Part shown: positions 16,207-30,400 of the stretch, piece by piece | Layout: every line of letters begins with the position of its first letter | How positions within the stretch are numbered: position 1 is the first letter of the stretch | NCBI GenBank assembly: GCA_016218925.1 | Contig: JACRCR010000109.1 | Coordinates: forward strand, 42,053-106,052 | Direction of reading: 5' to 3' | Length of the DNA: 64,000 bases | DNA from: Deltaproteobacteria bacterium | Lineage (GTDB): Bacteria; Desulfobacterota; Binatia; UBA1149; CAITLU01 | Position numbers and translations under genes: made by a program | The notes under the pieces: generated by a model | Told to the model about the DNA's origin: nothing | The model's input: the letters and a program-made list of their open reading frames with translations, nothing else | Database searches by the model: none

Positions 16207-17250
16207 ATGGCACGTGGCACCGGACTGGTTTCTTCGAGGGTGGCCGCGATGCACGGCTACACTCCGGGCGAGCAGCCGCAGGCCGGGCGCCTGATCAAGC
16301 TCAACACTAACGAGAATCCCTATCCGTGCTCGCCGCTGGTGGCGGGCGCCATCGCCGACGAAGCGCGCTCGTTGCAACTCTACCCCTCGCCGAACGCCGA
16401 CGCGCTGCGGGCCAAGGCCGCACAGGTGTACCGTGTGGCGCCTGAGCAGGTGCTGGTCGGCAACGGCTCCGATGAAGTGCTCGCGATGATACTGCGCGCC
16501 TGCGTGCTCGATGGCGACGCGGTGGCGTACGCAGTGCCCACCTATTCGCTCTATCGCACGCTGGCGCAGTCGGTCGGTGCGCGGGTGGTGGAGATTGCCG
16601 CCGACGGCTCCGCGATACCACGCGGCGTGGCCGATGCGCGTGCGCGCGTGACGTTTGTCTGCACTCCCAACTCGCCGACCGGCCGTGCGATCGCGCTCGA
16701 TGCCATCGCCGAGTTCGCACGCAGCGCGGACGGCGTGGTAGTGGTCGATGAGGCTTACGCCGATTTCGGCACCGCCACCGCGCTGACGATCCTGGCCGAT
16801 CACCCGAACATGGTCGTGACGCGCAGTTTCTCGAAGTCGTTCTCGCTGGCCGGGCTGAGGCTCGGGCTGGCGTTCGGACACGCGGACTTTCTCGCCGAAC
16901 TGCTCAAGGTGAAGGACTCGTACAACATCTCGCGCCTGGCGATCGCTGCCGGGGTCGCCGCGCTCGACGACTACGCATGGATGCAGAGCAACGTCTCGCG
17001 GGTGCGCGCGACCCGGGCTCGTGTCACCGCGCGGCTTCGCGCGGCGGGATTTCGCGTGGAGGATTCGAGCGCGAATTTCGTGTGGGTGGACTGCTCGAGC
17101 GCCGGTGGCGGCAGGCCGGTCTACGACAAGCTTCGCGCGGCGGGCGTGCTGGTGCGCTACTTCGACGTCGAGGGGCTGCGCGGCGGGATTCGCGCGAGCA
17201 TCGGGACGGATGAGCAGATGGACGTTATGCTGGCGGTGCTCGGGGGGTGA
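16207..17250 (+). CDS. hisC: histidinol-phosphate aminotransferase
   Basis: Class-II aminotransferase: 'LNTNENPY', PLP-Lys region 'TRSFSKSFSLAGLRLG'. Confidence 0.85.
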   Translation: MARGTGLVSSRVAAMHGYTPGEQPQAGRLIKLNTNENPYPCSPLVAGAIADEARSLQLYPSPNADALRAKAAQVYRVAPEQVLVGNGSDEVLAMILRACVLDGDAVAYAVPTYSLYRTLAQSVGARVVEIAADGSAIPRGVADARARVTFVCTPNSPTGRAIALDAIAEFARSADGVVVVDEAYADFGTATALTILADHPNMVVTRSFSKSFSLAGLRLGLAFGHADFLAELLKVKDSYNISRLAIAAGVAALDDYAWMQSNVSRVRATRARVTARLRAAGFRVEDSSANFVWVDCSSAGGGRPVYDKLRAAGVLVRYFDVEGLRGGIRASIGTDEQMDVMLAVLGG

Positions 17251-17348: not shown

Positions 17349-17450
17349 TTGGAGCGAACGCACTCTTGGTTCAACCGGTTCCGCAAGCTAGCGATGCGTT
17401 GCGAAGAGAAGCCGGAGAAATACTCGGCCTTCATGCAATTTCGCCGCCGT
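17349..17450 (+). pseudogene. C-terminal remnant of an IS5-family (IS4/IS5 DDE) transposase
   Basis: 'ERTHSWFNRFRKLAMRCEEKPEKYSAFMQF' matches the conserved C-terminal signature ERTxxWxxRFRRLAxxYE...Y.AF of IS5-group transposases. Only about 34 codons survive, and they abut hisC. Confidence 0.45.
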
Positions 17451-17548
17451 CATCATTACGCTCACGCCCTTGGGATAGGCTCTTCGTGCAACGCGACGTC
17501 CCGTGTTTCTATCGCACCGTTAGCCAGAGCTGGATCGTCCGTGAGCAC

Positions 17549-19069
17549 TTACGACATATCTTGGCCGGCCTCAGTCCATGGGGTCTCCCGTTTGAAAGCG
17601 AGGCAGAACATTAGGTTCACGACGATGATTGCCATGGCACTAAACACGGTAATCGTGTCATTCTGAACCCAGTTCCCGTAAACAAATGGCACAAGCCCGA
17701 TGAGCGAGGCCGTGATGCCCCAGAAGGCGCCCTTGGCGCTCAGGCGGTCCCAGCAGACACTCAACACGGTTGGCACGGCGAAGCATGAGGCGACACCATT
17801 GAAAATCCACCACAGGCGGTCCAAGGAGAACAGGTGCTGAACGATCAAAGCCGTGATAAGCCCCAAGGCCGCAATTCCATACATCGCCGTGCGAGAACGT
17901 TTCACTGACAATGCGTCCAGGCGATCCTTGTCCTTCGTGTCCTTGGCCGTCAGAGGCAATTGAAGCCTTTCCCTCCTGAGCAACTCTCTCTCAGCCTCGG
18001 TCAGGGGCGCCATGTCGATGGCATAAAGCGACGCTGCCGCGCACAAAGCCGAATCGAGAGTGCTCTCGAGTCCGGACAGAAGGATCACAACGAAAAGCAG
18101 CGCGGCCCATAACGGAAGAAGCTTGACAACAGTCGCCACACCGATCATCGGAAGCCCGACGCCTTGAGGAAGGGCGATTCCCATCTCCGGGTTGGCGGCG
18201 ATGAAGCCAAGCACCGAAAGCGCGATCGGCACGATACCGAACAGGAGGCCTCCTACGACGAAAGCAGGGACCAAGTGTTCTCTTCTAATCGCGAAGCTCC
18301 GCTGCCAATACTGCTGATCGGAAATCGATCCTGCAATCAGTCCGATCGATGTCACAATTCCAAAGGAGAAGGCAACTTTCGGGTCGAGCACATTCCTATT
18401 CTGCGCGAGACCGCCGAGCCCCGCCTCAATGGAATTCAGACCGGCGACCCAGATTACCCAAGGGATGATCACAAAGATTCCCACGAGTATGAAAGCCATC
18501 TGCAGGAAGTCCGTTACGATCGAGGCCCTGAGTCCAGAGATGAGGGAGTAGGCCAAGCCGACGGCCAGCAGCAGGAACATGAGGAAGTTGAGCGGAATGC
18601 CGGTGAGGAAATTAAGCATCATCCCACCGACGAAGATTTGAACGGTCACGGCCATGATCTGGTACCAAATGTATGGAACCATATAGATCGTGTGAAGTCG
18701 CTGGTCGCAGAATCGGTGGCGGATCCAGTCCGGCAGCGTGTAGCCGCCGGGGATCTTGTTTCGAACACGCGGCGCTAGCCACGCAAAGACCACCAGCGCA
18801 AGAATGTTCGGCGCCGTAAACCAGAAGATGCCAGGCAGGCCCAATTCATACGCCTTTTGCACGCTCACGAAAAGCGCTGGGGCCCAAATCCAGGATGCGG
18901 CGATGCTTGGTGCCGCGAGGACCCAATGCACATCGCGGCCAGCGACCAGGAAGCCCGCTTGAGTCTTGGTCCATCTCGCGTCGCGAGAAGCGAGCCACGT
19001 CACCAGGATCATGACGATGCCGAAGAGTCCGATTAGAAGATATCCGACACCCTGCGAAACTACGTTCAT
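17549..19069 (-). CDS. sodium:solute symporter (SSS/SSF) family transporter
   Basis: About 13 TM helices. SSS N-terminal signature 'FLVAGRDVHWVLAAPSIAASWIWAPALF...YTLPDWIRHRF'. Its ATG overlaps the upstream gene's stop (ATGA). Confidence 0.8.
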   Translation of the reverse strand: MNVVSQGVGYLLIGLFGIVMILVTWLASRDARWTKTQAGFLVAGRDVHWVLAAPSIAASWIWAPALFVSVQKAYELGLPGIFWFTAPNILALVVFAWLAPRVRNKIPGGYTLPDWIRHRFCDQRLHTIYMVPYIWYQIMAVTVQIFVGGMMLNFLTGIPLNFLMFLLLAVGLAYSLISGLRASIVTDFLQMAFILVGIFVIIPWVIWVAGLNSIEAGLGGLAQNRNVLDPKVAFSFGIVTSIGLIAGSISDQQYWQRSFAIRREHLVPAFVVGGLLFGIVPIALSVLGFIAANPEMGIALPQGVGLPMIGVATVVKLLPLWAALLFVVILLSGLESTLDSALCAAASLYAIDMAPLTEAERELLRRERLQLPLTAKDTKDKDRLDALSVKRSRTAMYGIAALGLITALIVQHLFSLDRLWWIFNGVASCFAVPTVLSVCWDRLSAKGAFWGITASLIGLVPFVYGNWVQNDTITVFSAMAIIVVNLMFCLAFKRETPWTEAGQDMS

Positions 19070-22000
19070 TTTGCGCGCTCCTTTCGCTTGGTCGCGAGGG
19101 TTCCAAATCCATCCCGGAAATTTGCGATCTCCGTTTCTCGGCGGGTGAGCGCCGTTAACTCTGCGTCGGATAGTGATCTGCAGAGTCGGAAGCCCACGTC
19201 TGGGTTCGTATTCTGCGGAAACAGCCCTATCCCATAGTCGAAGGCGAAGCTGCGCTCACCCAAGTATGATGTGGCCCCGAGAATTGCTCGTCGCCCGTGG
19301 CTTCGTCCGGGGAAGTCGTGACACCATTCCTTGACGTTCCCCATCATGCCCGATGTGCCGAACGGGCCGAACGGTTCAGAGAGCACTGGAACATGCTCCT
19401 TTGCCATGCCAAGGAGCACTTCCTTGTAGACGCTCCGCCACGACATAAGCCACTGCCACAACGAGTCGCTAGCGGGCTCGGACGCGCCGGATTGGAGCGT
19501 AGCACACCAGCGATCTAAGTCGCTTTCTGGAAGAATCAGCGGGTACAGCTCCCATGGGTACGATACGTCGAGCCGCCCTCCGCGAGCTGCCCACGACCAC
19601 TCGTGAACTGCCGGAAGCCGGTAGCCTCCTCCGAACGCAGAGTAGTCGTCACGTGCGTCGCTAGCCGCCGGTTCTGTGTCCTCGGCGAAGTAACGAGGAT
19701 ATACGCACGCTAGTGATGGTTCGCATTGCGTCAGCCAATCACAGAACGCGGCACAGGCGTACCAGCTGACATACACGACCGGATGTCTGTACTGAGTGGC
19801 GAGTGGCCGATGCCTTGGATCCAGCGCAGAAGGCATCTCTTCCCAGAAGTAGAGATGGTACTCGTTGGTGAACTTGGCAAAACGAGGCCGGCTGTTTGGT
19901 CGAGCACCTCCTGCAATCGTGACATTCTCAACGCGCCAGCCGTTACCTTCCTTAGAGCTCAAGAACGCCAGATAGTCTTCGTTGGTGATTTCTCGTTCAC
20001 CGATTAGGAACGGACGGTTCAGTTCGGGTGGCATTCCCACCTGGCTCTCCGCCAGGAAACTCGGCGCTGCTTCCGCAACTGGCGGGGGCATGAGCACCAT
20101 CTCGTATCTTTCGAGCCGATTGGGGCCGCGTATAATTGCTTCGACGTCCCGTCCCCACCACGGATCTATCGCCGCTCGCTCGGCACCGGAAAGCAATCCC
20201 ATCGCATCTAGGTTGTGGCCGAGAAAGCGAAGACAGGAGGAGAACACAGAAAGGTCACGGCGAGCGGCGCAGTCAACCAGCTTGCGTCTCGCCAGATCGG
20301 CCAGCGCCTGGGGGCCGCGGCCAGCTGGCCCCAGGTCGATATCAGCCAGGAGATCTCTAAGGATGCCGGCCGCCGCCAGACCAAGGGGGACGTCGCCGAG
20401 CGCTCTGAGCCGGTCTATGACAGGGGACGACTTCTGGTCTTCGTTGGGTAGCGGGACCTGGACTGCTCGCTTGAGATTGACAGCGACATGCCTCGCCAGC
20501 AGGAAGGCGCCGCTGACCGAAGTCGCTCCCGCTGGCGCGATAAAATGCGCGGTCGCTACAAGCGCTCTTGCGCGAGTCGTATCTTCGCCTCGCTCGCTAC
20601 CCTCATCGATGGCTTCCACGGCCTCCTCACCGACCTGAGGGAAGAATTGCGACGCCTCGGAGTCGTTCGGCCTGACCGCGAAACGGAGGGCCGCGACACT
20701 TTCCGGATCTTCATTTCCGGCCAGTTCCAGGTTCGTTTCGCGCATCCGACCGTGACGAGTGCCGAGCGGGGCCACCTCAAGGAGCGTATGCGTTTGCAGA
20801 TCGGTTCGAACGGCCTCAACGTCGAGGCCGTAACGGTGCGAAATGTGAGCTGGGATCCCGTCCATACTAACGAGTTCCGTTCCCCGCGCGGCGAGATGCC
20901 AGACCAACTCGCCAAGGAGTTCGACCCGCTCGTTTGTCCCGACCCGAATCACCGCGCCAGTGGATCGTGTATACAAGTCACGGGCCTTGCCGAGCTGGAT
21001 GTTGTAGTCGACCACCGCGCCAACAAGTGCCGCAGCAAGCAACTCCGCTGGACGCGGATCAGTGGCGGACCGCGCGGCATGGTCTACCATCGCCGCCAGG
21101 AGTGCGGGGGATCTCGAACAGATCTTCACTGCTTCAAGTAGCGCTTCCGTACACGGGTTCGCACCCGCGGGTTCAGGACCTGCGGCTGGCTTCAGGAACT
21201 TACCGAGACGCTGGGCTGCTTCTGCACTTTCCTGCTCGGCCGCCACGACCGAGAGGTATGCCGATACGGACTTCCGACCAAATGGCAGGAGAGCAACGAT
21301 CTCAAAGGCGCTCGATACGGAAACGCTCGGCCAAACCTCGGCTGCGAGAAGGCGGTCTATCGACCCAAAATGCGTAGCCCTGCATGCGGTGATGAAACGG
21401 GCGCCGAGCGGCAGCGCTGAACATATTCGCTGTAGGAGTTCGATCGCGTCTCCTTCATCTCCACGGGTGATGTGGCCAACCTCTTCGAAACCGTCGATGC
21501 AGAGAGTCATGTGGCCTGCAGCAATGAATGCCTCTACAAGCCTCGCATCCCACAAGAAGCGCGCGGTCGGATATTCCCTTAGCACTGCGTCCGGGAAAAA
21601 TGGGACCGACGTGCCAAAGGCTCCGAGGTGCGCCCGTTCCTCACGCAAGTCGAAGAAGAACGCAGGTCCGTAGAGCCAAGGGGCACGCTGATGACAACTG
21701 AAAATCTGTTCGCAGAATCGGAACAGCTGCCACGTCTTGCCGCTTCCCCGCTCGCCCAAAAGAAGCACAGGGTGCCGCTTGAGGTCGGCCCGCGCCCAAT
21801 CCTTGAAGTATTCCCCAGCCGAAATCTCGCTCTGTGGAGGTGTGCCGCCGCCGTCTGGCGTATGTACCACACGCAGGAGGCGATCCTGAAAACGCGTCTG
21901 GTACTTGGATTGGTTAAAGTCGCGCCGAGCTTTTCCGAAGACAAGCGCCGGCAGTCCGTCTGGGACGGCGCAGAGCAGCCGGAACAGCTGCGAGAAGTCA

Positions 22001-22323
22001 AGGACTTCCAATCGCTCCCCGGCCGACCGCAGATTCCCGAATCGGGAAGGGTCGCAGGCGATCAAGACGCGATCCGCGTTCGAAGCGCCAATAAACGCGA
22101 GAATGCCCGGGACAGCTCCTTCTATCGGCTGGCTCTCAAGGAGCAAGATCTCTTCGGTCAGCCTCTTCGTGAGTCCGGTGGTACACAGGCGGAAACCTTG
22201 TAGGCCTCCCGCCAGAGGGGAGTCCTTAAGGCCAAGTGGAAGTATTGTGCTCGACCCGAGGCGAAGTGCTGGGTGACCGAGCACTTCGCAGACCAGAGGG
22301 GTCACGTCAAAGTGGTCGCTCAT
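19066..22323 (-). CDS. STAND NTPase (NACHT-type P-loop) fused to a C-terminal formylglycine-generating-enzyme/sulfatase-modifying (FGE-sulfatase, SUMF1/EgtB-like) domain
   Basis: Walker A 'LLLGERGSGKTWQLFRF' and Walker B 'MTLCIDGFEEV', followed by a long helical region. C-terminal 'HPVVYVSWYACAAFCDWL', 'YRLPAVHEWSWAARGG', 'MMGNVKEWCHD', 'GFRLCRS' are FGE-sulfatase motifs. An N-terminal ~140-aa domain is unassigned. Confidence 0.8.
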   Translation of the reverse strand: MSDHFDVTPLVCEVLGHPALRLGSSTILPLGLKDSPLAGGLQGFRLCTTGLTKRLTEEILLLESQPIEGAVPGILAFIGASNADRVLIACDPSRFGNLRSAGERLEVLDFSQLFRLLCAVPDGLPALVFGKARRDFNQSKYQTRFQDRLLRVVHTPDGGGTPPQSEISAGEYFKDWARADLKRHPVLLLGERGSGKTWQLFRFCEQIFSCHQRAPWLYGPAFFFDLREERAHLGAFGTSVPFFPDAVLREYPTARFLWDARLVEAFIAAGHMTLCIDGFEEVGHITRGDEGDAIELLQRICSALPLGARFITACRATHFGSIDRLLAAEVWPSVSVSSAFEIVALLPFGRKSVSAYLSVVAAEQESAEAAQRLGKFLKPAAGPEPAGANPCTEALLEAVKICSRSPALLAAMVDHAARSATDPRPAELLAAALVGAVVDYNIQLGKARDLYTRSTGAVIRVGTNERVELLGELVWHLAARGTELVSMDGIPAHISHRYGLDVEAVRTDLQTHTLLEVAPLGTRHGRMRETNLELAGNEDPESVAALRFAVRPNDSEASQFFPQVGEEAVEAIDEGSERGEDTTRARALVATAHFIAPAGATSVSGAFLLARHVAVNLKRAVQVPLPNEDQKSSPVIDRLRALGDVPLGLAAAGILRDLLADIDLGPAGRGPQALADLARRKLVDCAARRDLSVFSSCLRFLGHNLDAMGLLSGAERAAIDPWWGRDVEAIIRGPNRLERYEMVLMPPPVAEAAPSFLAESQVGMPPELNRPFLIGEREITNEDYLAFLSSKEGNGWRVENVTIAGGARPNSRPRFAKFTNEYHLYFWEEMPSALDPRHRPLATQYRHPVVYVSWYACAAFCDWLTQCEPSLACVYPRYFAEDTEPAASDARDDYSAFGGGYRLPAVHEWSWAARGGRLDVSYPWELYPLILPESDLDRWCATLQSGASEPASDSLWQWLMSWRSVYKEVLLGMAKEHVPVLSEPFGPFGTSGMMGNVKEWCHDFPGRSHGRRAILGATSYLGERSFAFDYGIGLFPQNTNPDVGFRLCRSLSDAELTALTRRETEIANFRDGFGTLATKRKERAK

Positions 22324-24134
22324 GTCTTCTGCCCCCGTCTCCCTCTCGCAACTGTGAGTGCTGTTTCGGCGAACTTGAGGGGCAATTTGCCCGCCCGGCA
22401 GAACTGATAAACGGGGTATTCACGAAGTGACTCCAGGCTGTCACCCCGAGTCTCCCCAAGAGCCTGTGTGTATACAAGGCCCGTCCGTATCCAGGCATGG
22501 TCAAGCTCCCCGATCTCCCGTCGCCGGGCGTAGTAGCTCACCGGGTGTTCCCATGCCTGCAGGACGATGCGTGTCCCCAGTGCACCTCCGTACTGCCGCA
22601 GGATTTCCGCACAGTTCTTCGAGTAGACGTCAACGTCTCCTCGCACGTCCTGGGGCACCGAACTTCGGTTCTCATCCGGGCCGTCGCTGCGGACTGCCGA
22701 GAGCGCGAGATCGCAGGCCTTGGCGAAGGCGTCTTCACTTGTATCGTAGACCGCGGGTCCCTTGCGCTGCTCAGTGGTGGACTTCAGGCAGCGAAGCACG
22801 AGGAACAGGAACCACGGATCGCCTCCGCTGTATTCGTCGAGCAAGGCGAGGGTCGCAGGAGCAGCGGGGGCTCCCAGAAAGAGCCGCAGTAATTCGTCAA
22901 GCTCGGCTTGAGACAGGGGAGGAATTCTCAAGACGGCGTGCCTGACGAACAAAGGCTCTGTCGCTCGGTCTATCGGGAGATCGTGCGCGGCTAGTAGCAG
23001 GCCGAGTTGCGGGCAATCGTCTGGCTGACGTTCAAGCCGCTGCCGAAGCGCGCCGAGGCCTTCCCAGAGGTGGTGGCGTGGGCTGTCGTCTCCGTTAATA
23101 GCTTCCTCGACTGTGTAGAATGGCAGAAAGACGGTGATTCTATTTGTAATCCCCGATGCCGTCGCGGCGTTGCTCAGGAAGGAGAGGAAATCACGGATGC
23201 AATCCCAGTGCTCTTGGTGCAGCCGGGCGTCTCTAAGATAGGAGCGCGCGAAGCTTGCCGGATTACCAACCATCTCGGGCGTGAAGATCCCCGGCAGAAA
23301 TCTACCAGTCGTTTGCTTCAGTCCGCTAGCTGCTACGAAGGCGAGAGATGCGAATAGGCAGTCGAGAGCCGCAAGTGCGGGCGGCGGAATGGTCAAACAT
23401 TTATCAAGGATATGCAGGAAAGCCGCGCTCTCGAAGCGGACGATGACATGCTTTAGATGATCGGAGCAACGTGCCTCGATGTAGTCTTGGAATCCATCAA
23501 TGAACTCGGGGAGGTACGACTGCTTGCCGCCGACCAAGAAGACCATGCGCCGCTCCGGCAAGAGGTACTCAAGCTCGGCGAAGAGGCTGGGGCGGTGCCG
23601 CATGGCTTCGGCGAATCCGCCAGGGGTTGCAAGGTCTCCTCTCGCCGTGGGTAGCGCAGTCGATGCGAGCCAGGACTGGAGCGACGCATGGCCCGCCTGG
23701 CGGTACTGCGAGGCTGCGTGAAGCACGATCGATCGCAGGATCTCAATCGCGCCCTGTTGGGGCTTGTCCGGAAGGGCATCGACTGCATCCTTGAGGGTCG
23801 TGCCAGTGTCCGGCCATGGTGCGGGTCGGACGTTTGCAACGCTCAGCGATGAGCGTTGCGCCGCGAGCGTCTCACGCCCTACGACAAGGCGGACCAAGCC
23901 TCGGTAGCAAGCGTCCGGATCGAGTTGGGAGAACCTAAGCGGCTCTGCACCCTGGAGGCCGGAATTCCATACGTAACGTGTGGTATCTTGCACTTCCTTC
24001 GGCGCGTGTAGCTCGGGGACCCACAACCAGACGTCACAACTACTATCATCCACGTGGACGATGGAAGCATCGTAACGTGGGCTGCTCGTCGCATGAATGC
24101 CGTCGTCGTCGACTGGGGCCACGAAGAGACTCAC
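22320..24134 (-). CDS. hypothetical 604-aa protein; possible degenerate (P-loop-less) STAND-like partner
   Basis: No recognisable catalytic motif. 'FLVGGKQS' resembles but does not satisfy Walker A. 'RIPPLSQAELDELLRLFLG' resembles the STAND helical motif. ATGA overlaps at both ends. Confidence 0.55.
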   Translation of the reverse strand: MSLFVAPVDDDGIHATSSPRYDASIVHVDDSSCDVWLWVPELHAPKEVQDTTRYVWNSGLQGAEPLRFSQLDPDACYRGLVRLVVGRETLAAQRSSLSVANVRPAPWPDTGTTLKDAVDALPDKPQQGAIEILRSIVLHAASQYRQAGHASLQSWLASTALPTARGDLATPGGFAEAMRHRPSLFAELEYLLPERRMVFLVGGKQSYLPEFIDGFQDYIEARCSDHLKHVIVRFESAAFLHILDKCLTIPPPALAALDCLFASLAFVAASGLKQTTGRFLPGIFTPEMVGNPASFARSYLRDARLHQEHWDCIRDFLSFLSNAATASGITNRITVFLPFYTVEEAINGDDSPRHHLWEGLGALRQRLERQPDDCPQLGLLLAAHDLPIDRATEPLFVRHAVLRIPPLSQAELDELLRLFLGAPAAPATLALLDEYSGGDPWFLFLVLRCLKSTTEQRKGPAVYDTSEDAFAKACDLALSAVRSDGPDENRSSVPQDVRGDVDVYSKNCAEILRQYGGALGTRIVLQAWEHPVSYYARRREIGELDHAWIRTGLVYTQALGETRGDSLESLREYPVYQFCRAGKLPLKFAETALTVARGRRGQKT

Positions 24135-24778
24135 CAGGGATTCTCCTGAGGTAGGCTTGGGGTCAGTTCATAAACGGCGGCGATTTGGTCGCGCACTTCG
24201 TCCGCGAGACCAAGAAGCCGTTCCCCGTCGGCCCGGACCCGATCGATGCGGGCTGCCGCGTCTTGAGCTACGTATTGCACTGCATCGGCGGCGCCGTCGA
24301 GCTCGCCGATTTGGGTCTCGGCGTTCCTAACCCAATAGGCGAGCTGATTCCCGAGCGCAGGCTGCTGTTCATCCACGAGAGTGCCAAGCCGGGTTGCTGC
24401 GGTCGCCGCTTTCTCCAGGGTGTCGCCATAGAGCCTGATCACGTCTGCCGGCGGGACGGTCGCAGCCGTCAATGCGTGGTGGTACGCCACCCGAAGGGAC
24501 TGGAATTCACGCAAGAGCTCGCGCATCCTCGGCTTCGCGGACAAGATGTGTTCGCGCTTTTTCCGCCACGCCAGGAGGTAGTCTACGAAGCCGATCGTGA
24601 GCGCAATGCCGAAAATCTCGGTGCCCAGGTTTAGGAAAAAACCGTCGAAGAAGTGCGAGCGATCCCCGAGCCAGTAGGACGCACCGATCACGGCGAGCGA
24701 GGCGACTGTCAAAGCACATGCAAGCACGGCGCCTAGATGCGCGAAACAGGCTGTCTCGATGCGTCGCCAGAAGATCAA
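24131..24778 (-). CDS. small two-TM membrane protein with cytoplasmic coiled-coil domain (first gene of the 4-gene operon)
   Basis: Two hydrophobic helices (res ~10-32 and 48-70), then a charged helical domain. The stop overlaps the next gene's start. Confidence 0.55.
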   Translation of the reverse strand: MIFWRRIETACFAHLGAVLACALTVASLAVIGASYWLGDRSHFFDGFFLNLGTEIFGIALTIGFVDYLLAWRKKREHILSAKPRMRELLREFQSLRVAYHHALTAATVPPADVIRLYGDTLEKAATAATRLGTLVDEQQPALGNQLAYWVRNAETQIGELDGAADAVQYVAQDAAARIDRVRADGERLLGLADEVRDQIAAVYELTPSLPQENPW

Positions 24779-25171
24779 CGGTAGATTCCTTTCCGACTCA
24801 GCGTGAGTGGCGGTATTCTATGAGGGATAGAACTAGCGCTTCCCGCATGGGCGGCTGGTGTCCATGGGGTCGCGCAGAGGAGCGAGGCGAGAACTCGGTC
24901 CCGCCCGTCCAGACCGACCGTGGCCCACGATCTCGAAGACGCCGAAAGCAAGTTGAACCCTTCTTCCGGGCGACCCTGCGAGGAGAGCGCCGGAAAGTCA
25001 ATCGTGCCCCCGCGGGCTACGACTGTTCTTCGCTGCGACCTTCTGGATTCGTATGGCCCGATAGTTCCTTGAATCGGCCAGCGACCGAACGCGTTCAGCA
25101 GCGCTTCGCATCCAATAGCAGTGGCGCGCCGCGTCGTCAGCTGGATCGCTCTGGGTGCGTTCATCGACCGG

Positions 25172-26029
25172 TCACCAGTCAAGCGCAGCCGACTCCTGCC
25201 ACTTGGGTAAGCGCATCCATTTCGGAGTAATGAGCACCTCCTTTCCGTTCCTCCGCTCGGCAGCGGAATAGCGTAACGAGAAGGGATGTATCGCGGCCCA
25301 GCCGCGATACATCCGACGAACCTCGGCACAGTCGTCATACGTCAGCACCCAAGCCGCGTTACACATGGCCTTCAGTCGGGCGGCGAGCGCCGCGTGGTAG
25401 TCCGCGTCCAGCGAGTTGAGGTAGAGCGTCGGTCCCTTTTCGAAGTATGGTGGATCAACGAAGAAGAAGGTGGACTCCGGGTCGAGTCTCTCGATGAACT
25501 GGATTCCGTCGTCGCAGGACACGCGGACGCGCTCGCGGTACTCGGCGACTTTCTCGCAGCGGCGGCGGAGGTCAGACTTGTTGAACCTGGCGTCAAGCTT
25601 CCACGCACCGACCTGCGTGATCCCTCCAATAGGCCCGCCGTTCATGATGATCCCCGAGCGATTGCATCGGTTCAGGTAGAACGTCGAAAAACCTCGGCGG
25701 AGCCGGGAAACGCGACCGCTGTCTCTGTACACACTTCGCTGTCGGCGCCATTCAACCATGCTCACGCGTGTCCTCGACAGCATGTCCAGAAATGGCAATG
25801 GCCGGTTGACCAGCGTCCACCAGAAATCGTAGATGGCTGGATCTGCGTCGTTGATGTAGATCCCGTGGGTCTCTTCAAGATACAAGAGCGTAAGGGAGGC
25901 ACCAGCTCCCCCTGCGAACGGCTCCGCGATCGCTTGATGTCCCAGTCCATTGATCCTTCGTATGTTACCCAGCAGACCTGCCATCGCTGACTTCCCGCCG
26001 GGGTAGCGAAGGGGGCTTGAGGTTCTCAT
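25172..26029 (-). CDS. Dam-class (D12, alpha-group) N6-adenine DNA methyltransferase
   Basis: Motif I 'LRYPGGKSAMAGLL...EPFAGGAG' and motif IV 'FFFVDPPYFEKG'. Confidence 0.85.
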   Translation of the reverse strand: MRTSSPLRYPGGKSAMAGLLGNIRRINGLGHQAIAEPFAGGAGASLTLLYLEETHGIYINDADPAIYDFWWTLVNRPLPFLDMLSRTRVSMVEWRRQRSVYRDSGRVSRLRRGFSTFYLNRCNRSGIIMNGGPIGGITQVGAWKLDARFNKSDLRRRCEKVAEYRERVRVSCDDGIQFIERLDPESTFFFVDPPYFEKGPTLYLNSLDADYHAALAARLKAMCNAAWVLTYDDCAEVRRMYRGWAAIHPFSLRYSAAERRNGKEVLITPKWMRLPKWQESAALDW

Positions 26030-27480
26030 TCAGCGGTACCTTCTTGATCCTGCTCCAACATCAGCCGGAACAACGGTTCCGTGCGTTTCCAGAACTGCAA
26101 AATATCTCGCGCGCTGGGCAGATCGGGCTGGTGTACAAATCCATGAAGTTCGCTGATCGTGAATGGTGCCGAGGGATCGTACCGGATCGCCTTCTCAACG
26201 ATCGTGGCGCTTGCATTGGTCAGCTTGGCTTTCGCAATCCGCTTTATCTCGGGCACCAGCTGCTTCATCGTGGGCACGCCGAAAGGAAGCGTTCGGGACT
26301 CCTTCTTCTCGATTCTCTCGATGATGGCCGGAAGCTCGCCGGTGCGTTGGAGGTAGTCCAGCACCGCGAGCTCGAAGAAGACCCGAAGGAGCACGGCACC
26401 AGCGTTTGGAAACTCCTCGCGCTTGAGCCTGACCAACTCGCGCCGGATGTCGCGGAGCCGGTCATTCCCAAACCGGACTCGAAAATCGCGCGGCAACACC
26501 GTGTTGCTCGGCTGTTTAGACCTCTTCGGGGCGGAGGGCTTGGGCTTGCTCCGTGACGCAGTCACGGAGCGATCCTGGATGATATCAGCCGGCACAAACG
26601 ATCCGCGTTTCTTGGCGGGATGCTCGTCGGATTTCCAGGATCTGAAGTAATCTCGGATGTCTTCGCTGGTGTTGAGGGTTCTCGAAGATTGCCTCCCAAG
26701 TGCTACATCCATCACGAGTTTCGTGAAACCGCGAAGGAATTCTGCCTTGGTTGTCGTGCCACGAATTCCGTGTTCTGGGTGAGGTTCAACCATCAGGCAG
26801 TCGCGGCCAACAGAGGAATCAAAGACGCGCTCGATCGTTGTGAACAGCTTGGCCCGGGGATTCTCGAGCTTGGCCTTCACCTCTTCAGGGAGATCGAGCG
26901 AGCGGGCCATCTCGGCGATGGCCCGTGTTTGTCGAGCGGACTGGATGTCTGCAAGCGAGAATCCAAGTTGGTCCTGTAACTGCTCATTGGTGTAGCCCTC
27001 GGACAGCTTGTCGAGAATGAAACTCGCCCGATTTTCAGCTTGCCACGCGAGAACCGGCGTCCCTATGTGCCTACCCGCGATCTGGCGGTCGGTAGCCCGG
27101 CGACTCGGGGCGACGGTGACGGGCACACTCGCGATTTCACTCGGCACCTCAATCTGCCGGGACAGGCGCTCCAACTGCCGCTGGAAGGGCCCTTCTAGCA
27201 AGCCGGGCGCGCGGAGACCTTTCAAGGCTGCCAAGCGCCTGTTCCCCTCGACTACCACAAATCGATCATTCTCTTTGATTGCCAGAAGTGGTTCGTTCGG
27301 GAAGTAGCCGCGTGCGGCAATGCTCTTGGCCACTTCCATCGCCTTGTCGTGCTCAAATAGGTACTGAATGATCTCACGCGGCGCTCGCGCCGATGTCTCA
27401 CGGCCAAGGCGTGGGTTCTTCGCATCCAAGTGGAGACTGGCGACAGAACGCCGCACGGTGGGCCAGCTGTCGGTTGCCAT
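26026..27480 (-). CDS. ParB/Srx-like N-terminal nuclease-domain protein with unassigned C-terminal domain
   Basis: 'GYFPNEPLLAIKENDRFVVVEGNRRLAALKGL' matches the ParB box II region (GxRRxxA). ATGA overlap with the MTase gene. Confidence 0.65.
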   Translation of the reverse strand: MATDSWPTVRRSVASLHLDAKNPRLGRETSARAPREIIQYLFEHDKAMEVAKSIAARGYFPNEPLLAIKENDRFVVVEGNRRLAALKGLRAPGLLEGPFQRQLERLSRQIEVPSEIASVPVTVAPSRRATDRQIAGRHIGTPVLAWQAENRASFILDKLSEGYTNEQLQDQLGFSLADIQSARQTRAIAEMARSLDLPEEVKAKLENPRAKLFTTIERVFDSSVGRDCLMVEPHPEHGIRGTTTKAEFLRGFTKLVMDVALGRQSSRTLNTSEDIRDYFRSWKSDEHPAKKRGSFVPADIIQDRSVTASRSKPKPSAPKRSKQPSNTVLPRDFRVRFGNDRLRDIRRELVRLKREEFPNAGAVLLRVFFELAVLDYLQRTGELPAIIERIEKKESRTLPFGVPTMKQLVPEIKRIAKAKLTNASATIVEKAIRYDPSAPFTISELHGFVHQPDLPSARDILQFWKRTEPLFRLMLEQDQEGTAE

Positions 27481-27750: not shown

Positions 27751-28545
27751 TCACACTTTGAAGACCGGGTGGCGTCCAAGTGGCTCGCATTCATCTGTCC
27801 ACTCGACCAGATACTCCGGCAGCCTCGTCGGCCCGCGCTTCGGAAACCGCAGGCGAAGCGCAGCACAACCCTGAATGCTGGTAAGTCCCCTCAGATCGAA
27901 CACCGCCATAGATCGGTAGACAATGAGCGCTACGTCGAGGGCGGCAACCCCCGCGACGAGTATCAGCAAGGCTTTCCTCGGCAAAGGCTCTACGACTACA
28001 AGGGAGATAAGGAGGATCTCAGCGAAGAAGGAGGCGAACGTCACGTAGACGAGTGCGCGTGGGAGGTGCGGGCGCGGCTGCGTCTCAACATGGGTGCATT
28101 CGAGTAGGTGAAGCGCAGTCTCCCAAGGGACATCACTCCGTCGGCACGCCTCGGTTAGTGGAGTCGTGTCGACCGCAACGCCGGCAACCGAGAGTCGCTT
28201 ATAGTCAAGTCCGATCACAAAGGCCGCCTTGCGATTGCGTGCCCGCGCGCGGTTCAAGATCACTAGCGACGAAGAAACAAGGACGAGCAGCGGAACAAGA
28301 TAGAAGAGCCCGGGCGAGACAACAGTTCCTGTCGCAGGCGTACCGCGGGCGAGGACGCATAATGCGAGCGCGGGAGCAGTGATCCCGGACGTGAACAGTT
28401 GCAGCTGCCAATGCACATCCTCGGCCGTTTCGCCGACCAACCTCATGCATTCAGCTCCATCCTCCCGCTCCCATTTCATCGGTTTGACTTCCATCGGCTC
28501 TCCGCCTCTCGCAGGACATTCGCCTTCGCCACCAATAACGTCCAT
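27751..28545 (-). CDS. hypothetical integral membrane protein (3-4 TM)
   Basis: Hydrophobic segments only; the start is uncertain. Lower-GC island context. Confidence 0.35.
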   Translation of the reverse strand: MDVIGGEGECPARGGEPMEVKPMKWEREDGAECMRLVGETAEDVHWQLQLFTSGITAPALALCVLARGTPATGTVVSPGLFYLVPLLVLVSSSLVILNRARARNRKAAFVIGLDYKRLSVAGVAVDTTPLTEACRRSDVPWETALHLLECTHVETQPRPHLPRALVYVTFASFFAEILLISLVVVEPLPRKALLILVAGVAALDVALIVYRSMAVFDLRGLTSIQGCAALRLRFPKRGPTRLPEYLVEWTDECEPLGRHPVFKV

Positions 28546-29749: not shown

Positions 29750-30400
29750 GGGAGACCCCCCGGCTATGCCGGGGAGGCAGTAGTCGTTTGACAGTTCCGG
29801 GAGTGATCCACCCAACTCCCCTTCGTGAGCCGCTCAAAGCATCACGAAGAGGAGTGTTGGATGGATCAGTATCGGAACCTCAGTCCCACAAAATGGGATT
29901 GCAAGTACCACATCGTGTTCATCCCGAAGTGCCGCCGCAAGGTGTTGTACGGGACGCTGCGCCTGGATCTCGGGTCGGTGTTTCGGTCGCTCGCCGAGCA
30001 CAAGGAGAGCCGCGTAGAGGAAGGGCACTTGATGCCGGGCCACGTGCACATGCTGCTGTCGATACCGCCGAAGTACGCGGTTTCTCAGATGGTTGGATAC
30101 ATCAAGGGAAAGAGCGCGATCCACGTGGCGCGCACGTTCATGGAGCGCAAGCGCAACTTCGTGGGGCAGCACTTCTGGGCGCGCGGGTACTTTGTTTCGA
30201 CGGTCGGTCGGGACGAGACCGTGATCCGAGAGTACATCCGGTATCAGGAAGCGGAGGACAAACGGGCAGACCAGCTACAACTGTTGCCATAGAGCGCCAC
30301 CTTCAGGTGGCTCACGGTGCCGCTCGCGAGCGGCACCAATCTTAAGCCGCTTTGAGCGGCTCACGCGTTTGAAAGCCCCCGGCTTTGCCGGGGGATCGTT
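29750..30400 (+). mobile_element. IS200/IS605-family insertion sequence (tnpA-only) with subterminal hairpins
   Basis: Left hairpin 'ccccggctatgccgggg' (~29757-29775) and right hairpin 'cccccggctttgccggggg' (~30378-30396). An inverted 16-mer 'gtgagccgctcaaagc'/'gctttgagcggctcac' sits at both ends. Confidence 0.8.
29861..30292 (+). CDS. tnpA: IS200/IS605 family Y1 (HUH) transposase TnpA
   Basis: 'KWDCKYHIVFIPKCRRKVLYG', HuH 'HVHMLLSIPPKYAVSQMVGYIKGKSA', catalytic Tyr region 'YIRYQ'. Confidence 0.85.
   Translation: MDQYRNLSPTKWDCKYHIVFIPKCRRKVLYGTLRLDLGSVFRSLAEHKESRVEEGHLMPGHVHMLLSIPPKYAVSQMVGYIKGKSAIHVARTFMERKRNFVGQHFWARGYFVSTVGRDETVIREYIRYQEAEDKRADQLQLLP

What the first reader, a model, noticed from the sequence alone, without database searches (positions are those of the whole stretch)
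17549..24778. Four-gene translationally coupled operon: 2-TM protein, degenerate STAND-like protein, NACHT NTPase fused to FGE-sulfatase domain, and SSS transporter. Candidate undescribed defense/signalling module.
All three gene junctions are 4-nt ATGA overlaps (24131-24134, 22320-23 and 19066-69), so the four products are made stoichiometrically from one transcript. The core is a 1085-aa STAND ATPase with intact Walker A and B, carrying an FGE-sulfatase (SUMF1/EgtB-fold) domain where NLR-like proteins normally carry their sensor, plus an unassigned ~140-aa N-terminal domain that could be an effector. Just upstream is a 604-aa protein with STAND-like helical motifs but no functional P-loop, which may be a pseudo-NTPase partner analogous to paired NLRs. 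A small membrane protein and a sodium:solute symporter complete the set. This combination matches no described defense system that I know (Avs, bNACHT, etc. are mostly single genes with TPR/WD sensors). It sits in a lower-GC island next to a methyltransferase/ParB pair and IS scars, which is the usual defense-island context. Alternative hypothesis: it is a small-molecule-sensing signalling module, with the transporter importing the ligand sensed by the FGE domain.
Basis: partly seen in the sequence, partly recalled or inferred. Interest (0 to 1): 0.85.

Follow-up and report, generated by a model that had tools for sequence, protein, structure and literature searches.

The report
NLR-like operon coupled to transporter
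A four-gene operon in a defence island encodes an NLR-type ATPase with a lectin-like (FGE) sensor, a degenerate partner ATPase that carries cell-killing domains in relatives, a small membrane protein and a solute transporter. The receptor-transporter pairing recurs in about two dozen environmental loci and I found no description of it, so it may be an immune receptor wired to a membrane transporter.

Summary
The four minus-strand ORFs exist exactly as reported. One correction: the A/B junction is GTGA, not ATGA. C is a NACHT-type STAND ATPase (intact Walker A/B; model hits NOD2/NLRP3) with a C-terminal FGE/C-type-lectin domain with no conserved cysteine pair where FGE has its catalytic Cys pair. 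D is a full-length DUR3-like sodium:solute symporter. B looks like an inactive STAND/ORC-Cdc6-like protein, but every test of this is weak.

The module is real and mobile. The B-C-D order recurs in at least 15 distinct loci from several phyla, next to PD-Lambda-5, BREX, conjugation genes or helicases.

The effector sits on B, not on C. B's core is constant, and its N-terminus is swapped for TIR, calcineurin-like phosphoesterase, CHAT or EAD1. A sister variant fuses a caspase to the NACHT-FGE protein and has no B.

The invariant link is FGE domain followed by the transporter: 24 of 26 scorable loci in D's clade, against 1 of 25 in the sister clade. D (72% identity) and the FGE domain (about 40%) evolve far more slowly than B (23%).

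STAND-FGE proteins and active/inactive STAND pairs were already predicted by Kaur et al. (2020, 2021). The transporter-coupled form appears undescribed. Verdict: new variant of a known kind, function untested.

The parts
24131..24778 (-). Gene A: 215-aa protein with two N-terminal transmembrane segments and a helical C-terminal half. Clade-specific accessory component.
   Evidence: ORF. TTG start preceded by GGAAAGGAA. Hydrophobic segments at about residues 7-35 and 47-65. Conserved in L002-L007 and weakly in L097. Absent in L009, L011, L012 and L096. No family hit.
23640..24134 (-). Gene B, N-terminal module (residues 1-165): beta-rich then helical, function unknown. It occupies the position where relatives carry TIR, Metallophos, CHAT, SEFIR or EAD1.
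   Evidence: Homology to L009 B starts only at residue 166, and L009 B has EAD1 there instead. Model pLDDT is about 50-60.
22320..23639 (-). Gene B, conserved core (residues 166-604, plus stop): putative inactive STAND/AAA+-like module.
23511..23537 (-). Degenerate P-loop position of B (LVGGKQSYL). There is no GK[ST]. The family consensus is GGxxSG[LR].
   Evidence: Alignments. hhalign places it on C's Walker A, but only at E 0.024 and probability 2%.
21829..22323 (-). Gene C, N-terminal alpha/beta domain (residues 1-165). Constant in the family, function unknown, possibly a docking domain.
   Evidence: Present in all C homologues, including those at 30% identity (18-22% identity). pLDDT 60-75. 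No homology to B's N-terminal module or to A.
21244..21828 (-). Gene C, NACHT nucleotide-binding domain (residues 166-360). Walker A G190-T197 lies at 21733-21756 and Walker B L273-E280 at 21484-21507.
   Evidence: Pfam NACHT 21.8 bits here, and 38-46 bits in homologues. Motifs invariant. Foldseek top hits NOD2, NLRP3 and NLRC4, E 1e-6 to 1e-3.
19174..20043 (-). Gene C, C-terminal FGE-sulfatase / C-type-lectin-fold domain (residues 761-1050), predicted non-catalytic. The most conserved part of C.
   Evidence: Pfam 5e-20. The best solved relatives are non-catalytic members (5aoh, TvpA 2y3c, PorK). No conserved Cys in ILGATSYLGERSFAFDYG. 40-41% identity to distant homologues, against 18-34% for the other domains.
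19066..22323 (-). Gene C as a whole (1085 aa): N-terminal domain, NACHT, helical regions, FGE domain.
17549..19069 (-). Gene D: sodium:solute symporter family permease, DUR3-like. The constant and most conserved component of the system.
   Evidence: Pfam SSF 7e-29. Best solved relatives are DUR3 urea-proton symporters (5e-20) and SGLT. 72% identical to L009 D, whereas C is 30% and B is 23% identical. 142 near-invariant columns shared with non-system relatives.
24779..25171 (-). 393-bp intergenic region between the PD-Lambda-5 methyltransferase gene and gene A. The likely promoter region of the operon.
   Evidence: Sequence. The consensus promoter scan found nothing there, and Rfam found no riboswitch. 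The role is inferred from position only.

Best explanation
This is a multi-component NLR-like conflict (probably anti-phage or anti-mobile-element) system. It is a transporter-coupled variant of the STAND-FGS systems predicted by Kaur et al.

Proposed working, with shown and inferred steps marked:
1. D, a functional-looking SSS permease, and the non-catalytic FGE/lectin domain of C form the constant sensing unit. The FGE domain reads either D's conformational state or a small molecule that D imports. Genomic coupling is shown; physical or ligand coupling is inferred.
2. The signal releases the NACHT switch of C. C has intact Walker A/B (shown), so it would be ATP-dependent and would oligomerise (inferred).
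3. C assembles with B, a degenerate STAND-like partner (weakly supported). This brings B's N-terminal module together. That module is TIR, phosphoesterase, CHAT protease or an EAD1 adaptor in relatives (shown), and a domain of unknown fold in this window.
4. The outcome is growth arrest or death of the infected cell (inferred by analogy with Avs/bNACHT).

A, a 2-TM plus helical protein found only in this clade, is an accessory membrane anchor or executioner (inferred).
For: Conserved module:
- The order B-C-D recurs with 23-58% (B) and 29-58% (C) identity. Loci: L002-L007, L009-L013, L082, L096 and L097, with L014 and L067 cut by a contig end, and degraded copies in L001/L008.
- Hosts include Deltaproteobacteria, Acidobacteria, Terracidiphilus and Rhodoblastus.

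Conflict-system signature:
- The flanks differ between loci and are defence or mobile-element genes: PD-Lambda-5 in the window, BrxL/PglZ, T4SS coupling protein, plasmid RepA/HNH/Mrr_N, and SNF2/UvrD-like helicases.
- B has a constant core and swappable N-termini: TIR_2 in 4 members, Metallophos in 3, and CHAT, SEFIR and EAD1 in 1 each.
- L009 B carries EAD1, and EAD1-trypsin, a TIR protein and EAD1-EAD2-VMAP-C genes lie just downstream.
- A sister architecture fuses Peptidase_C14 (caspase) directly to NACHT-pentapeptide-FGE, followed by the same transporter and with no B.

Receptor-transporter coupling:
- In D's clade (>= 58% identity), 24 of 26 loci with enough upstream sequence have an FGE-bearing NACHT ORF ending at the start of D.
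- In the main sister clade of D relatives, 1 of 25 does, and those neighbours are housekeeping genes.
- In L097 the FGE domain is a separate gene, and it still sits directly before D.
- In the window the C stop and D start overlap.

C is an NLR-type switch.

Precedents:
- An idle transporter (via MalK) and a PLP enzyme (MalY) hold the STAND protein MalT inactive (PMC10427625).
- Active/inactive STAND pairs with effectors on the inactive partner are known (PMC8195603, section 15).
Against: - There is no experimental evidence of defence for any member.
- No PADLOC model matches, and no member was found in viral contigs or plasmids.
- The window's own B N-terminal module has no recognisable effector fold or catalytic motif.
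- The sensor (FGE) and D are the slowest-evolving parts. Avs sensors, by contrast, bind phage proteins directly and differ widely between families.
- Many relatives carry an amino-acid-type enzyme after D. This could point to a metabolic or signalling role instead.
- Physical C-D and C-B contacts are inferred from gene order only.
Confidence: 0.55

Rival explanations
1. It is a non-immune nutrient or metabolite signalling module of the MalT/MalK type. The NACHT-FGE protein monitors a dedicated permease for an amine, ureido or amino-acid-like solute. Through B, it adjusts physiology (for example dormancy or turnover of a metabolite) rather than fighting invaders.
For: - D is under strong purifying selection. 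It keeps 142 near-invariant columns in common with housekeeping relatives and is full length.
- The FGE domain is conserved, not diversifying.
- System loci often add OTCace, PALP, Aminotran_1_2 or Aminotran_5 genes directly after D, sometimes overlapping it.
- The STAND protein MalT is controlled by a transporter and a PLP enzyme (PMC10427625).
- No DGR template repeat is present in the window.
Against: - B's N-termini (TIR, CHAT, SEFIR, calcineurin-like phosphoesterase, EAD1) and the caspase fusions are the standard repertoire of cell-suicide and conflict systems. They are not typical of metabolic regulators.
- There is no DNA-binding output domain.
- The distribution is patchy and multi-phylum, inside low-GC islands next to defence and mobile genes.
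- The window's copy works without any linked enzyme gene.
Confidence: 0.15
2. It is the same defence system, but the transporter is the effector rather than part of the sensor. The activated NACHT oligomer locks D open so that it dissipates the Na+/H+ gradient. The FGE domain binds a phage protein directly.
For: - Membrane-disrupting proteins are common abortive-infection effectors (general knowledge).
- C and D are translationally coupled.
- L097 has a B core with no N-terminal effector domain, so another component would have to kill the cell.
- FGS domains were proposed to bind invader molecules directly (PMC8195603, section 7).
Against: - Effectors in such systems are the variable part. Here D is the most constant part (72% identity where B is 23%).
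- D is barely distinguishable from non-system paralogues: 11 discriminating positions and no extra domain.
- The systems already carry dedicated enzymatic effectors on B or fused to C.
- The conserved FGE surface argues against recognition of fast-evolving phage proteins.
Confidence: 0.12
3. It is a biosynthetic or catabolic pathway in which the FGE-sulfatase domain is an enzyme (EgtB/OvoA/SenA-like sulfoxide synthase, or a formylglycine-generating enzyme) and D imports its substrate.
For: - Pfam FGE-sulfatase hit.
- Weak NCBIfam hits to SenA and EgtB.
- Class-V and class-I aminotransferase-fold genes occur in some relatives, reminiscent of EgtE/OvoB.
Against: - EgtB and SenA scores are 13.7 and 14.5 bits against cut-offs of 360 and 420.
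- No DinB-like iron-binding domain was reported by Pfam.
- The segment that aligns with the FGE Cys pair has Gly and Ala, and there is no conserved Cys. The FGE motif itself is recalled from memory.
- The closest solved relatives are non-catalytic lectin-fold proteins.
- The domain is fused to a NACHT switch and linked to TIR, caspase and CHAT modules.
Confidence: 0.03

Closest known systems
STAND NTPase-FGS ('lectin-fold') counter-invader systems, predicted by Kaur, Iyer, Burroughs & Aravind 2021 (PMC8195603, section 7). FGE-sulfatase sensors are also shown in the STAND phylogeny of Lee et al. 2026 (PMC13581612).
   Same: A NACHT-clade STAND NTPase with a C-terminal non-catalytic FGE/C-type-lectin domain. 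It is associated with TIR, caspase, calcineurin and EAD modules and has a patchy, mobile distribution.
   Different: - In the described systems the effector or EAD sits on the N-terminus of the same polypeptide, and the FGS gene is often a DGR target.
- Here the effector position is on a separate protein (B).
- C has a constant N-terminal domain.
- No DGR repeat is present in the window, and the FGE domain is the conserved part.
- An SSS transporter gene is an obligate neighbour. Neither Kaur paper (2020, 2021) nor the main text of Lee et al. 2026 contains the word 'symporter'.
iSTAND / iSTAND2 proteins of MoxR-vWA ternary systems, and the nSTAND2 active/inactive two-gene operon (Kaur et al. 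2020, PMC7159879 section 20; 2021, PMC8195603 sections 6 and 15).
   Same: An inactive STAND-like core with variable N-terminal TIR, peptidase or EAD modules. In nSTAND2, the inactive partner carries the effector and pairs with an active STAND encoded next to it.
   Different: - No MoxR or vWA partner belongs to this operon.
- B matches no Pfam model at all.
- Its STAND fold is only weakly supported.
- The active partner is a NACHT-FGE protein, not an nSTAND2 protein.
Avs and bNACHT antiviral STAND proteins.
   Same: NLR-like tripartite logic (effector, NTPase switch, sensor). Location in defence islands.
   Different: - Avs and bNACHT are usually single polypeptides with TPR-like or other repeat sensors that bind phage proteins.
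- No PADLOC Avs or bNACHT model matches C.
- Here the functions are split over 3-4 genes, with a membrane transporter.
MalT-MalK-MalY regulation in E. coli (PMC10427625).
   Same: A STAND ATPase is held inactive at the membrane by an idle transporter, and also by a PLP-dependent enzyme. Relatives of this operon likewise link a STAND protein, a transporter and a PLP or carbamoyltransferase enzyme.
   Different: - MalT is a transcription factor with a helical-repeat sensor.
- Its transporter is an ABC system encoded elsewhere.
- This is a functional analogy only; no homology between the partners has been shown.
Paired sensor/helper NLRs of plants and NAIP-NLRC4 in animals (own knowledge).
   Same: Two NLR-type proteins encoded together. 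One senses, and the other carries or transmits the output.
   Different: - In the eukaryotic pairs both partners usually keep nucleotide binding.
- B's P-loop has eroded.
- This is a resemblance in logic, not in ancestry.

Membership tests
NACHT clade of STAND NTPases (protein C) | Walker A GxxxxGK[ST], and Walker B of the hhhhDGhDE type | tested here: met
   LLLGERGSGKT (190-197) and LCIDGFEE (273-280) are invariant in orthologues and conserved in 30%-identity homologues.
NACHT clade of STAND NTPases (protein C) | Pfam PF05729 at or above the gathering score | tested here: inconclusive
   The window protein scores 21.8 bits against 26.7. Family members pass: L010 at 38.1, L016 at 45.6 and L024 at 44.2.
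NACHT clade of STAND NTPases (protein C) | NBD-HD-WHD fold like animal NLRs | tested here: met
   Foldseek top hits are NOD2 (1e-6), NLRP3 and NLRC4. However, the model is of low overall confidence (mean pLDDT 47.5, NBD 70-85).
STAND-FGS conflict systems (Kaur et al. 2021) | STAND NTPase fused to a C-terminal FGS (PF03781) domain | tested here: met
   FGE-sulfatase at 5e-20, residues 767-1004.
STAND-FGS conflict systems (Kaur et al. 2021) | N-terminal EAD or effector domain on the same polypeptide | tested here: not met
   C's N-terminal domain has no family hit and is constant across the family. This feature is met only in the sister variant with a caspase fusion.
STAND-FGS conflict systems (Kaur et al. 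2021) | Frequent DGR association (template repeat and reverse transcriptase) | tested here: not met
   No second copy of the 3' 1 kb of gene C exists anywhere in the 64-kb window. The rest of the genome was not available.
iSTAND-type inactive STAND proteins (protein B) | STAND fold with eroded NTP-binding motifs | tested here: inconclusive
   - The motif position reads LVGGKQSYL.
- hhalign against C's NOD: E 0.024-0.11, probability <= 2%.
- Foldseek best hit is Cdc6/Orc1 at E 6e-3.
iSTAND-type inactive STAND proteins (protein B) | Variable N-terminal TIR, peptidase or EAD modules | tested here: met
   TIR_2, SEFIR, CHAT, Metallophos and EAD1 occur on family members. The window's own module is unassigned.
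iSTAND-type inactive STAND proteins (protein B) | Encoded with MoxR AAA+ and vWA partners (a ternary system) | tested here: not met
   The window operon and most loci have no such genes. L009 has a separate VMAP-C/AAA_5 set downstream.
Formylglycine-generating enzyme / EgtB-OvoA-SenA sulfoxide synthases | Catalytic Cys pair (FGE), or a DinB-like iron-binding domain plus an equivalog-level match (EgtB/SenA) | tested here: not met
   - NCBIfam EgtB scores 13.7 against 360, and SenA 14.5 against 420.
- No DinB hit.
- The segment SYLGERSFAFDY has no Cys.
- Correspondence to human SUMF1 SYMCHRSYCYRY is from memory, not from a tool.
Sodium:solute symporter family (protein D) | Pfam PF00474 above threshold, and a full-length multi-TM core | tested here: met
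   101.4 bits against 22.8. Aligns end to end with relatives. Closest solved chains are DUR3 and SGLT. The substrate was not tested.
Any defence system in PADLOC-DB v2 | A significant HMM match to a system component | tested here: not met
   No hit for A, B or D. C has only E >= 0.013 chance-level P-loop matches.

The most novel reading that the evidence does not exclude
This would be an NLR-type immune receptor whose sensor domain does not bind a phage protein. Instead it reads a dedicated solute transporter, either through its cargo or through its transport state. That could let a bacterium trigger TIR, caspase or phosphoesterase effectors in response to an imported small molecule (for example an alarm or lysis-derived metabolite from infected kin, possibly processed by the linked carbamoyltransferase or PLP enzyme). 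It could also respond to the collapse of the ion gradient at phage entry.
Probability: 0.2. Interest if true: 0.85.

Novelty: new variant of a known kind. Interest (0 to 1): 0.66.

Why it matters
Bacterial NLR-like proteins characterised so far sense phage proteins directly in the cytoplasm. A family in which the NACHT-lectin receptor is invariably wired to a membrane permease would add a new input route to prokaryotic innate immunity. That input would be either transport state or an imported small molecule. It would be a bacterial counterpart of sensor/helper NLR pairs.

The system is compact (3-5 genes) and has clear mutational handles:
- Walker A K196.
- The swappable N-terminus of B.
- The transporter.

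It occurs in a cultured bacterium (Rhodoblastus acidophilus, L096), so the hypothesis is directly testable.

If the system turns out to be a non-immune solute-sensing switch that uses TIR or caspase outputs, that would also be unusual.

Tried and rejected
1. Known defence system: PADLOC found nothing for A-D, and PHROGs found nothing.
2. EgtB/FGE enzymology: rejected on scores and missing residues.
3. DGR target: no template repeat of the FGE 3' region in the window.
4. C's N-terminal domain as the effector: rejected because it is constant while B's N-terminus is swapped.
5. EAD-like homotypic pairing between B's N-terminal module, C's N-terminal domain and A: hhalign probabilities <= 1%.
6. 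Riboswitch or leader RNA that might name the transporter's ligand: Rfam found none.
7. Promoter and terminator scans: not above shuffled expectation.
8. The window's hisC-like aminotransferase (16207-17250) as a fifth system gene: rejected. It is 28% identical over a partial alignment to the system-linked aminotransferase of L021, has host-like GC, and is convergent. No enzyme-gene remnant lies downstream of D.
9. Phage or plasmid carriage: one distant transporter hit in viral contigs and none in PLSDB for C.
10. Structure prediction: only 9 and 5 sequences were allowed into the alignments, so the models are poor (pLDDT 47.5 and 55.8). The FGE domain and B's N-terminal module could not be interpreted. 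The afdb50 library was unavailable.
11. A direct profile link between B and C's NOD was not significant.

Full report
**Observation**

- A: 24131-24778, 215 aa.
- B: 22320-24134, 604 aa.
- C: 19066-22323, 1085 aa.
- D: 17549-19069, 506 aa.

The B/C and C/D junctions are ATGA overlaps. The A/B junction is GTGA, because B starts with GTG. A has no ATG start: its ORF begins with TTG, 7 nt after GGAAAGGAA. A 393-bp gap separates A from the upstream methyltransferase gene.

GC falls to 0.58-0.62 between about 17.3 and 31 kb, against 0.66-0.70 outside.

The two genes upstream (25172-26029 and 26026-27480) are the B and A components of the PD-Lambda-5 defence system (PADLOC 5e-93 and 3e-49). An IS200-type transposase lies at 29825-30292. 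The defence-island context is therefore real.

**The proteins**

D:
- It matches Pfam SSF at 7e-29.
- Its closest solved relatives are the DUR3 urea-proton symporters (5e-20) and SGLT.

C:
- It matches FGE-sulfatase at residues 767-1004 (5e-20).
- It has a sub-threshold NACHT match (21.8 bits against 26.7) at residues 185-358.
- Walker A (LLLGERGSGKT) and Walker B (LCIDGFEE) are invariant in orthologues.
- Homologues pass the NACHT threshold.
- The AlphaFold model is poor overall (mean pLDDT 47.5; NBD 70-85), but it finds NOD2, NLRP3 and NLRC4 first.

The FGE domain of C:
- It scores far below the EgtB and SenA cut-offs.
- Its best solved relatives are non-catalytic lectin-fold members (5aoh, the DGR variable protein TvpA, PorK).
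- It has no conserved cysteine in the segment SYLGERSFAFDY. From my memory of human SUMF1 (SYMCHRSYCYRY), this segment corresponds to the catalytic Cys pair.
- No second copy of the 3' part of the gene exists in the window, so nothing here suggests DGR diversification.

A and B match nothing in Pfam, NCBIfam, PADLOC or PHROGs. A has two N-terminal hydrophobic segments and a helical remainder.

**Is it a unit?**

C has only eight non-identical relatives in the 5.8-billion-protein word-indexed search. Every contig that could be read shows the same order: small protein, about 600 aa, about 1050 aa NACHT-FGE, about 500 aa SSF.

A scan of species genomes added two homologues at 29-30% identity, again followed by an SSF gene and preceded by a B homologue. 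One is a Terracidiphilus MAG and the other an unclassified MAG.

The flanks differ between loci:
- T4SS coupling protein.
- BREX BrxL/PglZ.
- Plasmid RepA, HNH and Mrr_N.
- SNF2/UvrD-like helicases in the cultured Rhodoblastus acidophilus.

This is a mobile cassette, not a chance adjacency.

**Where the effector is**

A profile search of 1.84 billion representatives found only 55 B-family proteins. Homology to the window's B begins near residue 170, and the N-termini differ. They are Metallophos, TIR_2, SEFIR, CHAT or EAD1.

- TIR-B and Metallophos-B sit in the same B-C-D context.
- CHAT-B (L014) sits on a short contig that ends inside the C gene.
- L009 B carries EAD1, and EAD1-trypsin, a TIR protein and EAD1-EAD2-VMAP-C genes lie just downstream.
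- C's N-terminal domain, by contrast, is present in every family member.

The variable, effector-bearing position is therefore B's N-terminus. In the window, B residues 1-165 are an unassigned module in that position.

**What B's core is**

The evidence points one way but is weak:
- The predicted secondary structure follows a P-loop NTPase order. The strand MVFLVG is followed by a helix, and later by the strands ITVFLP and LGLLL. Then comes a helical region with GGDPWF.
- The Walker A position reads LVGGKQSYL (family consensus GGxxSG[LR]).
- hhalign places this on C's Walker A, but with E 0.024 and probability 2%.
- Two family members give weak AAA_35 and ATPase_2 hits.

I therefore call B 'probably an inactive STAND/AAA+-like partner'. 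Its architecture parallels the iSTAND, iSTAND2 and inactive nSTAND2 proteins of Kaur et al. (PMC7159879 section 20; PMC8195603 sections 6 and 15). Membership is not established.

**The transporter is the constant**

D is much more conserved than its partners. L009 D is 72% identical to the window's D, while C is 30% and B is 23% identical.

I used D as bait in the metagenome collection and scanned the loci with profiles of A-D:
- In the clade of D proteins >= 58% identical to the window's, 24 of 26 loci with enough upstream DNA have an FGE-bearing NACHT ORF ending at the start of D. Some of these loci are redundant.
- The two exceptions (L018, L025) have two small unknown ORFs there instead.
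- In the main sister clade (about 50-56% identity), 1 of 25 has one. The downstream neighbours there are assorted housekeeping genes.

Within the system clade there is a second architecture, Peptidase_C14(caspase)-NACHT-pentapeptide-FGE followed by D, with no B. In L097 the FGE domain is a separate 370-aa protein, and it is still encoded immediately before D.

The invariant link is thus the FGE domain followed by the SSS permease.

- The FGE domain is also the best-conserved part of C: 40-41% identity to distant homologues, against 18-34% for the other domains.
- D is full length.
- D shares 142 near-invariant columns with non-system relatives.
- D differs from them at only 11 clade-discriminating positions, such as D114, W135 and R181.
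- D therefore most likely still transports something.

**An unexplained extension**

In many system loci, D is followed (sometimes with an overlap) by one of four amino-acid-type enzymes:
- OTCace-type carbamoyltransferase (L012/L013/L026, L016, L019, L025; a fragment in L005).
- A PALP enzyme (L018, L082).
- A class-I/II aminotransferase (L021; the 86%-identical gene lies upstream of B in L009).
- A class-V aminotransferase (L003, L067).

The window has none. Downstream of D there is about 300 bp containing what looks like the C-terminal remnant of a DDE transposase. Next comes a convergent, host-GC hisC-like gene unrelated to the system-linked aminotransferase.

**Mechanism**

The best-supported reading is an NLR-like conflict system split over several genes:
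- D plus the FGE domain of C form the conserved sensing unit.
- The NACHT domain is the ATP-dependent switch.
- B is a helper that delivers the variable effector.
- A is a clade-specific membrane accessory.

Shown:
- Gene linkage and its specificity.
- The intact ATPase motifs.
- Effector swapping on B.
- The caspase-fused sister form.
- The defence and mobile-element contexts.

Inferred:
- Physical C-D and C-B contacts.
- Oligomerisation.
- Abortive-infection output.
- The nature of the trigger.

That both the sensor and the transporter evolve slowly suggests a conserved ligand, either D itself or a small molecule it imports. It argues against a fast-evolving phage protein.

A documented precedent exists for a STAND protein read out through a transporter. 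MalT is held at the membrane by the idle MalFGK2 transporter and is also sequestered by the PLP enzyme MalY (PMC10427625).

Rivals:
- A non-immune solute-sensing switch.
- D as a depolarising effector.
- An enzymatic FGE/EgtB pathway, which is essentially excluded.

**Comparison with the literature**

STAND-FGS proteins with N-terminal EADs or effectors, often DGR-linked, were predicted as counter-invader systems (PMC8195603 section 7; bioRxiv 10.1101/2023.09.22.558884). FGE-sulfatase sensors appear in the 2026 STAND survey (PMC13581612).

- Neither Kaur paper, nor the main text of the 2026 survey, contains the word 'symporter'.
- Full-text searches combining symporter terms with NACHT, STAND or anti-phage returned nothing.
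- Supplementary tables of those papers were not checked.

I therefore rate this as a new variant of a known kind. It is a transporter-coupled, split-effector form of the STAND-FGS systems. It is uncharacterised experimentally and rare: 55 B-family representatives at 50% clustering.

**Limits**

- Structure models rest on 9- and 5-sequence alignments and are of low confidence.
- The B fold, the function of the window's B N-terminal module, D's substrate and any immune phenotype are untested.
- Counts of loci include some near-duplicates from related samples.

Noticed in passing
window 25172-27480 (-): This is a complete PD-Lambda-5 defence system. The methyltransferase (25172-26029, PADLOC PD-Lambda-5_B 5e-93) overlaps by 4 nt a 484-aa ParB-like protein (26026-27480, PD-Lambda-5_A 3e-49). 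It lies immediately upstream of the operon.
   Followed up: partly
window 29825-30292 (+) and 29755-29879: An IS200-type Y1 transposase (Pfam Y1_Tnp 6e-37). A hairpin at its 5' end gives weak Rfam hits (STnc490, a miRNA model), consistent with an IS200 end structure.
   Followed up: partly
window about 17352-17474 (+): The peptide ERTHSWFNRFRKLAMRCEEKPEKYSAFMQF resembles, from memory, the C-terminal end of an IS5/IS4-type DDE transposase. It lies between gene D and the host hisC-like gene and may mark the island boundary. tblastn against plasmids found nothing.
   Followed up: partly
window 27751-28545 (-): A 264-aa ORF with several hydrophobic segments lies inside the low-GC island. It has no hit in Pfam, NCBIfam, PADLOC or PHROGs.
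   Followed up: partly
L012 15114-16112; L016 5922-6947; L019 1784-2764; L025 4525-5598; L018 6189-7136; L082 7454-8530; L021 3170-4270; L003 7424-8548; L067 5234-6394: In relatives, the transporter gene is followed by a variable amino-acid-type enzyme gene that sometimes overlaps it. The enzyme is OTCace, PALP, Aminotran_1_2 or Aminotran_5. This is not seen next to the sister clade of transporters and is absent from the window. It is unexplained.
   Followed up: partly
L024 6192-9860; L027 6289-9825; L033 1309-4569 (and L034): A sister architecture has caspase (Peptidase_C14), NACHT, pentapeptide repeats and FGE-sulfatase in one protein. It is followed by the same transporter clade and preceded by a small (about 170-200 aa) unassigned ORF.
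   Followed up: partly
L096 4997-12786 (Rhodoblastus acidophilus GCA_025961435.1, contig JAOQNR010000012.1): A cultured alphaproteobacterium carries TIR-B, NACHT-FGE, SSF and a 388-aa unknown gene, next to SNF2- and UvrD-like helicase genes. It is a possible experimental model.
   Followed up: partly
L097 4313-11524: This variant has an A-like protein, a B core with no N-terminal module, and C split into a 682-aa NACHT part and a separate 370-aa FGE protein. The transporter follows.
   Followed up: partly
L018 3026-4168; L025 1888-3011: In two loci of the system transporter clade, two small unassigned ORFs (about 195 and 179 aa) replace the NACHT-FGE gene upstream of the transporter.
   Followed up: no
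L001/L008 7500-14750 (Acidobacteria MAG): This copy of the cassette looks degraded. B and the transporter are each split into two ORFs.
   Followed up: no
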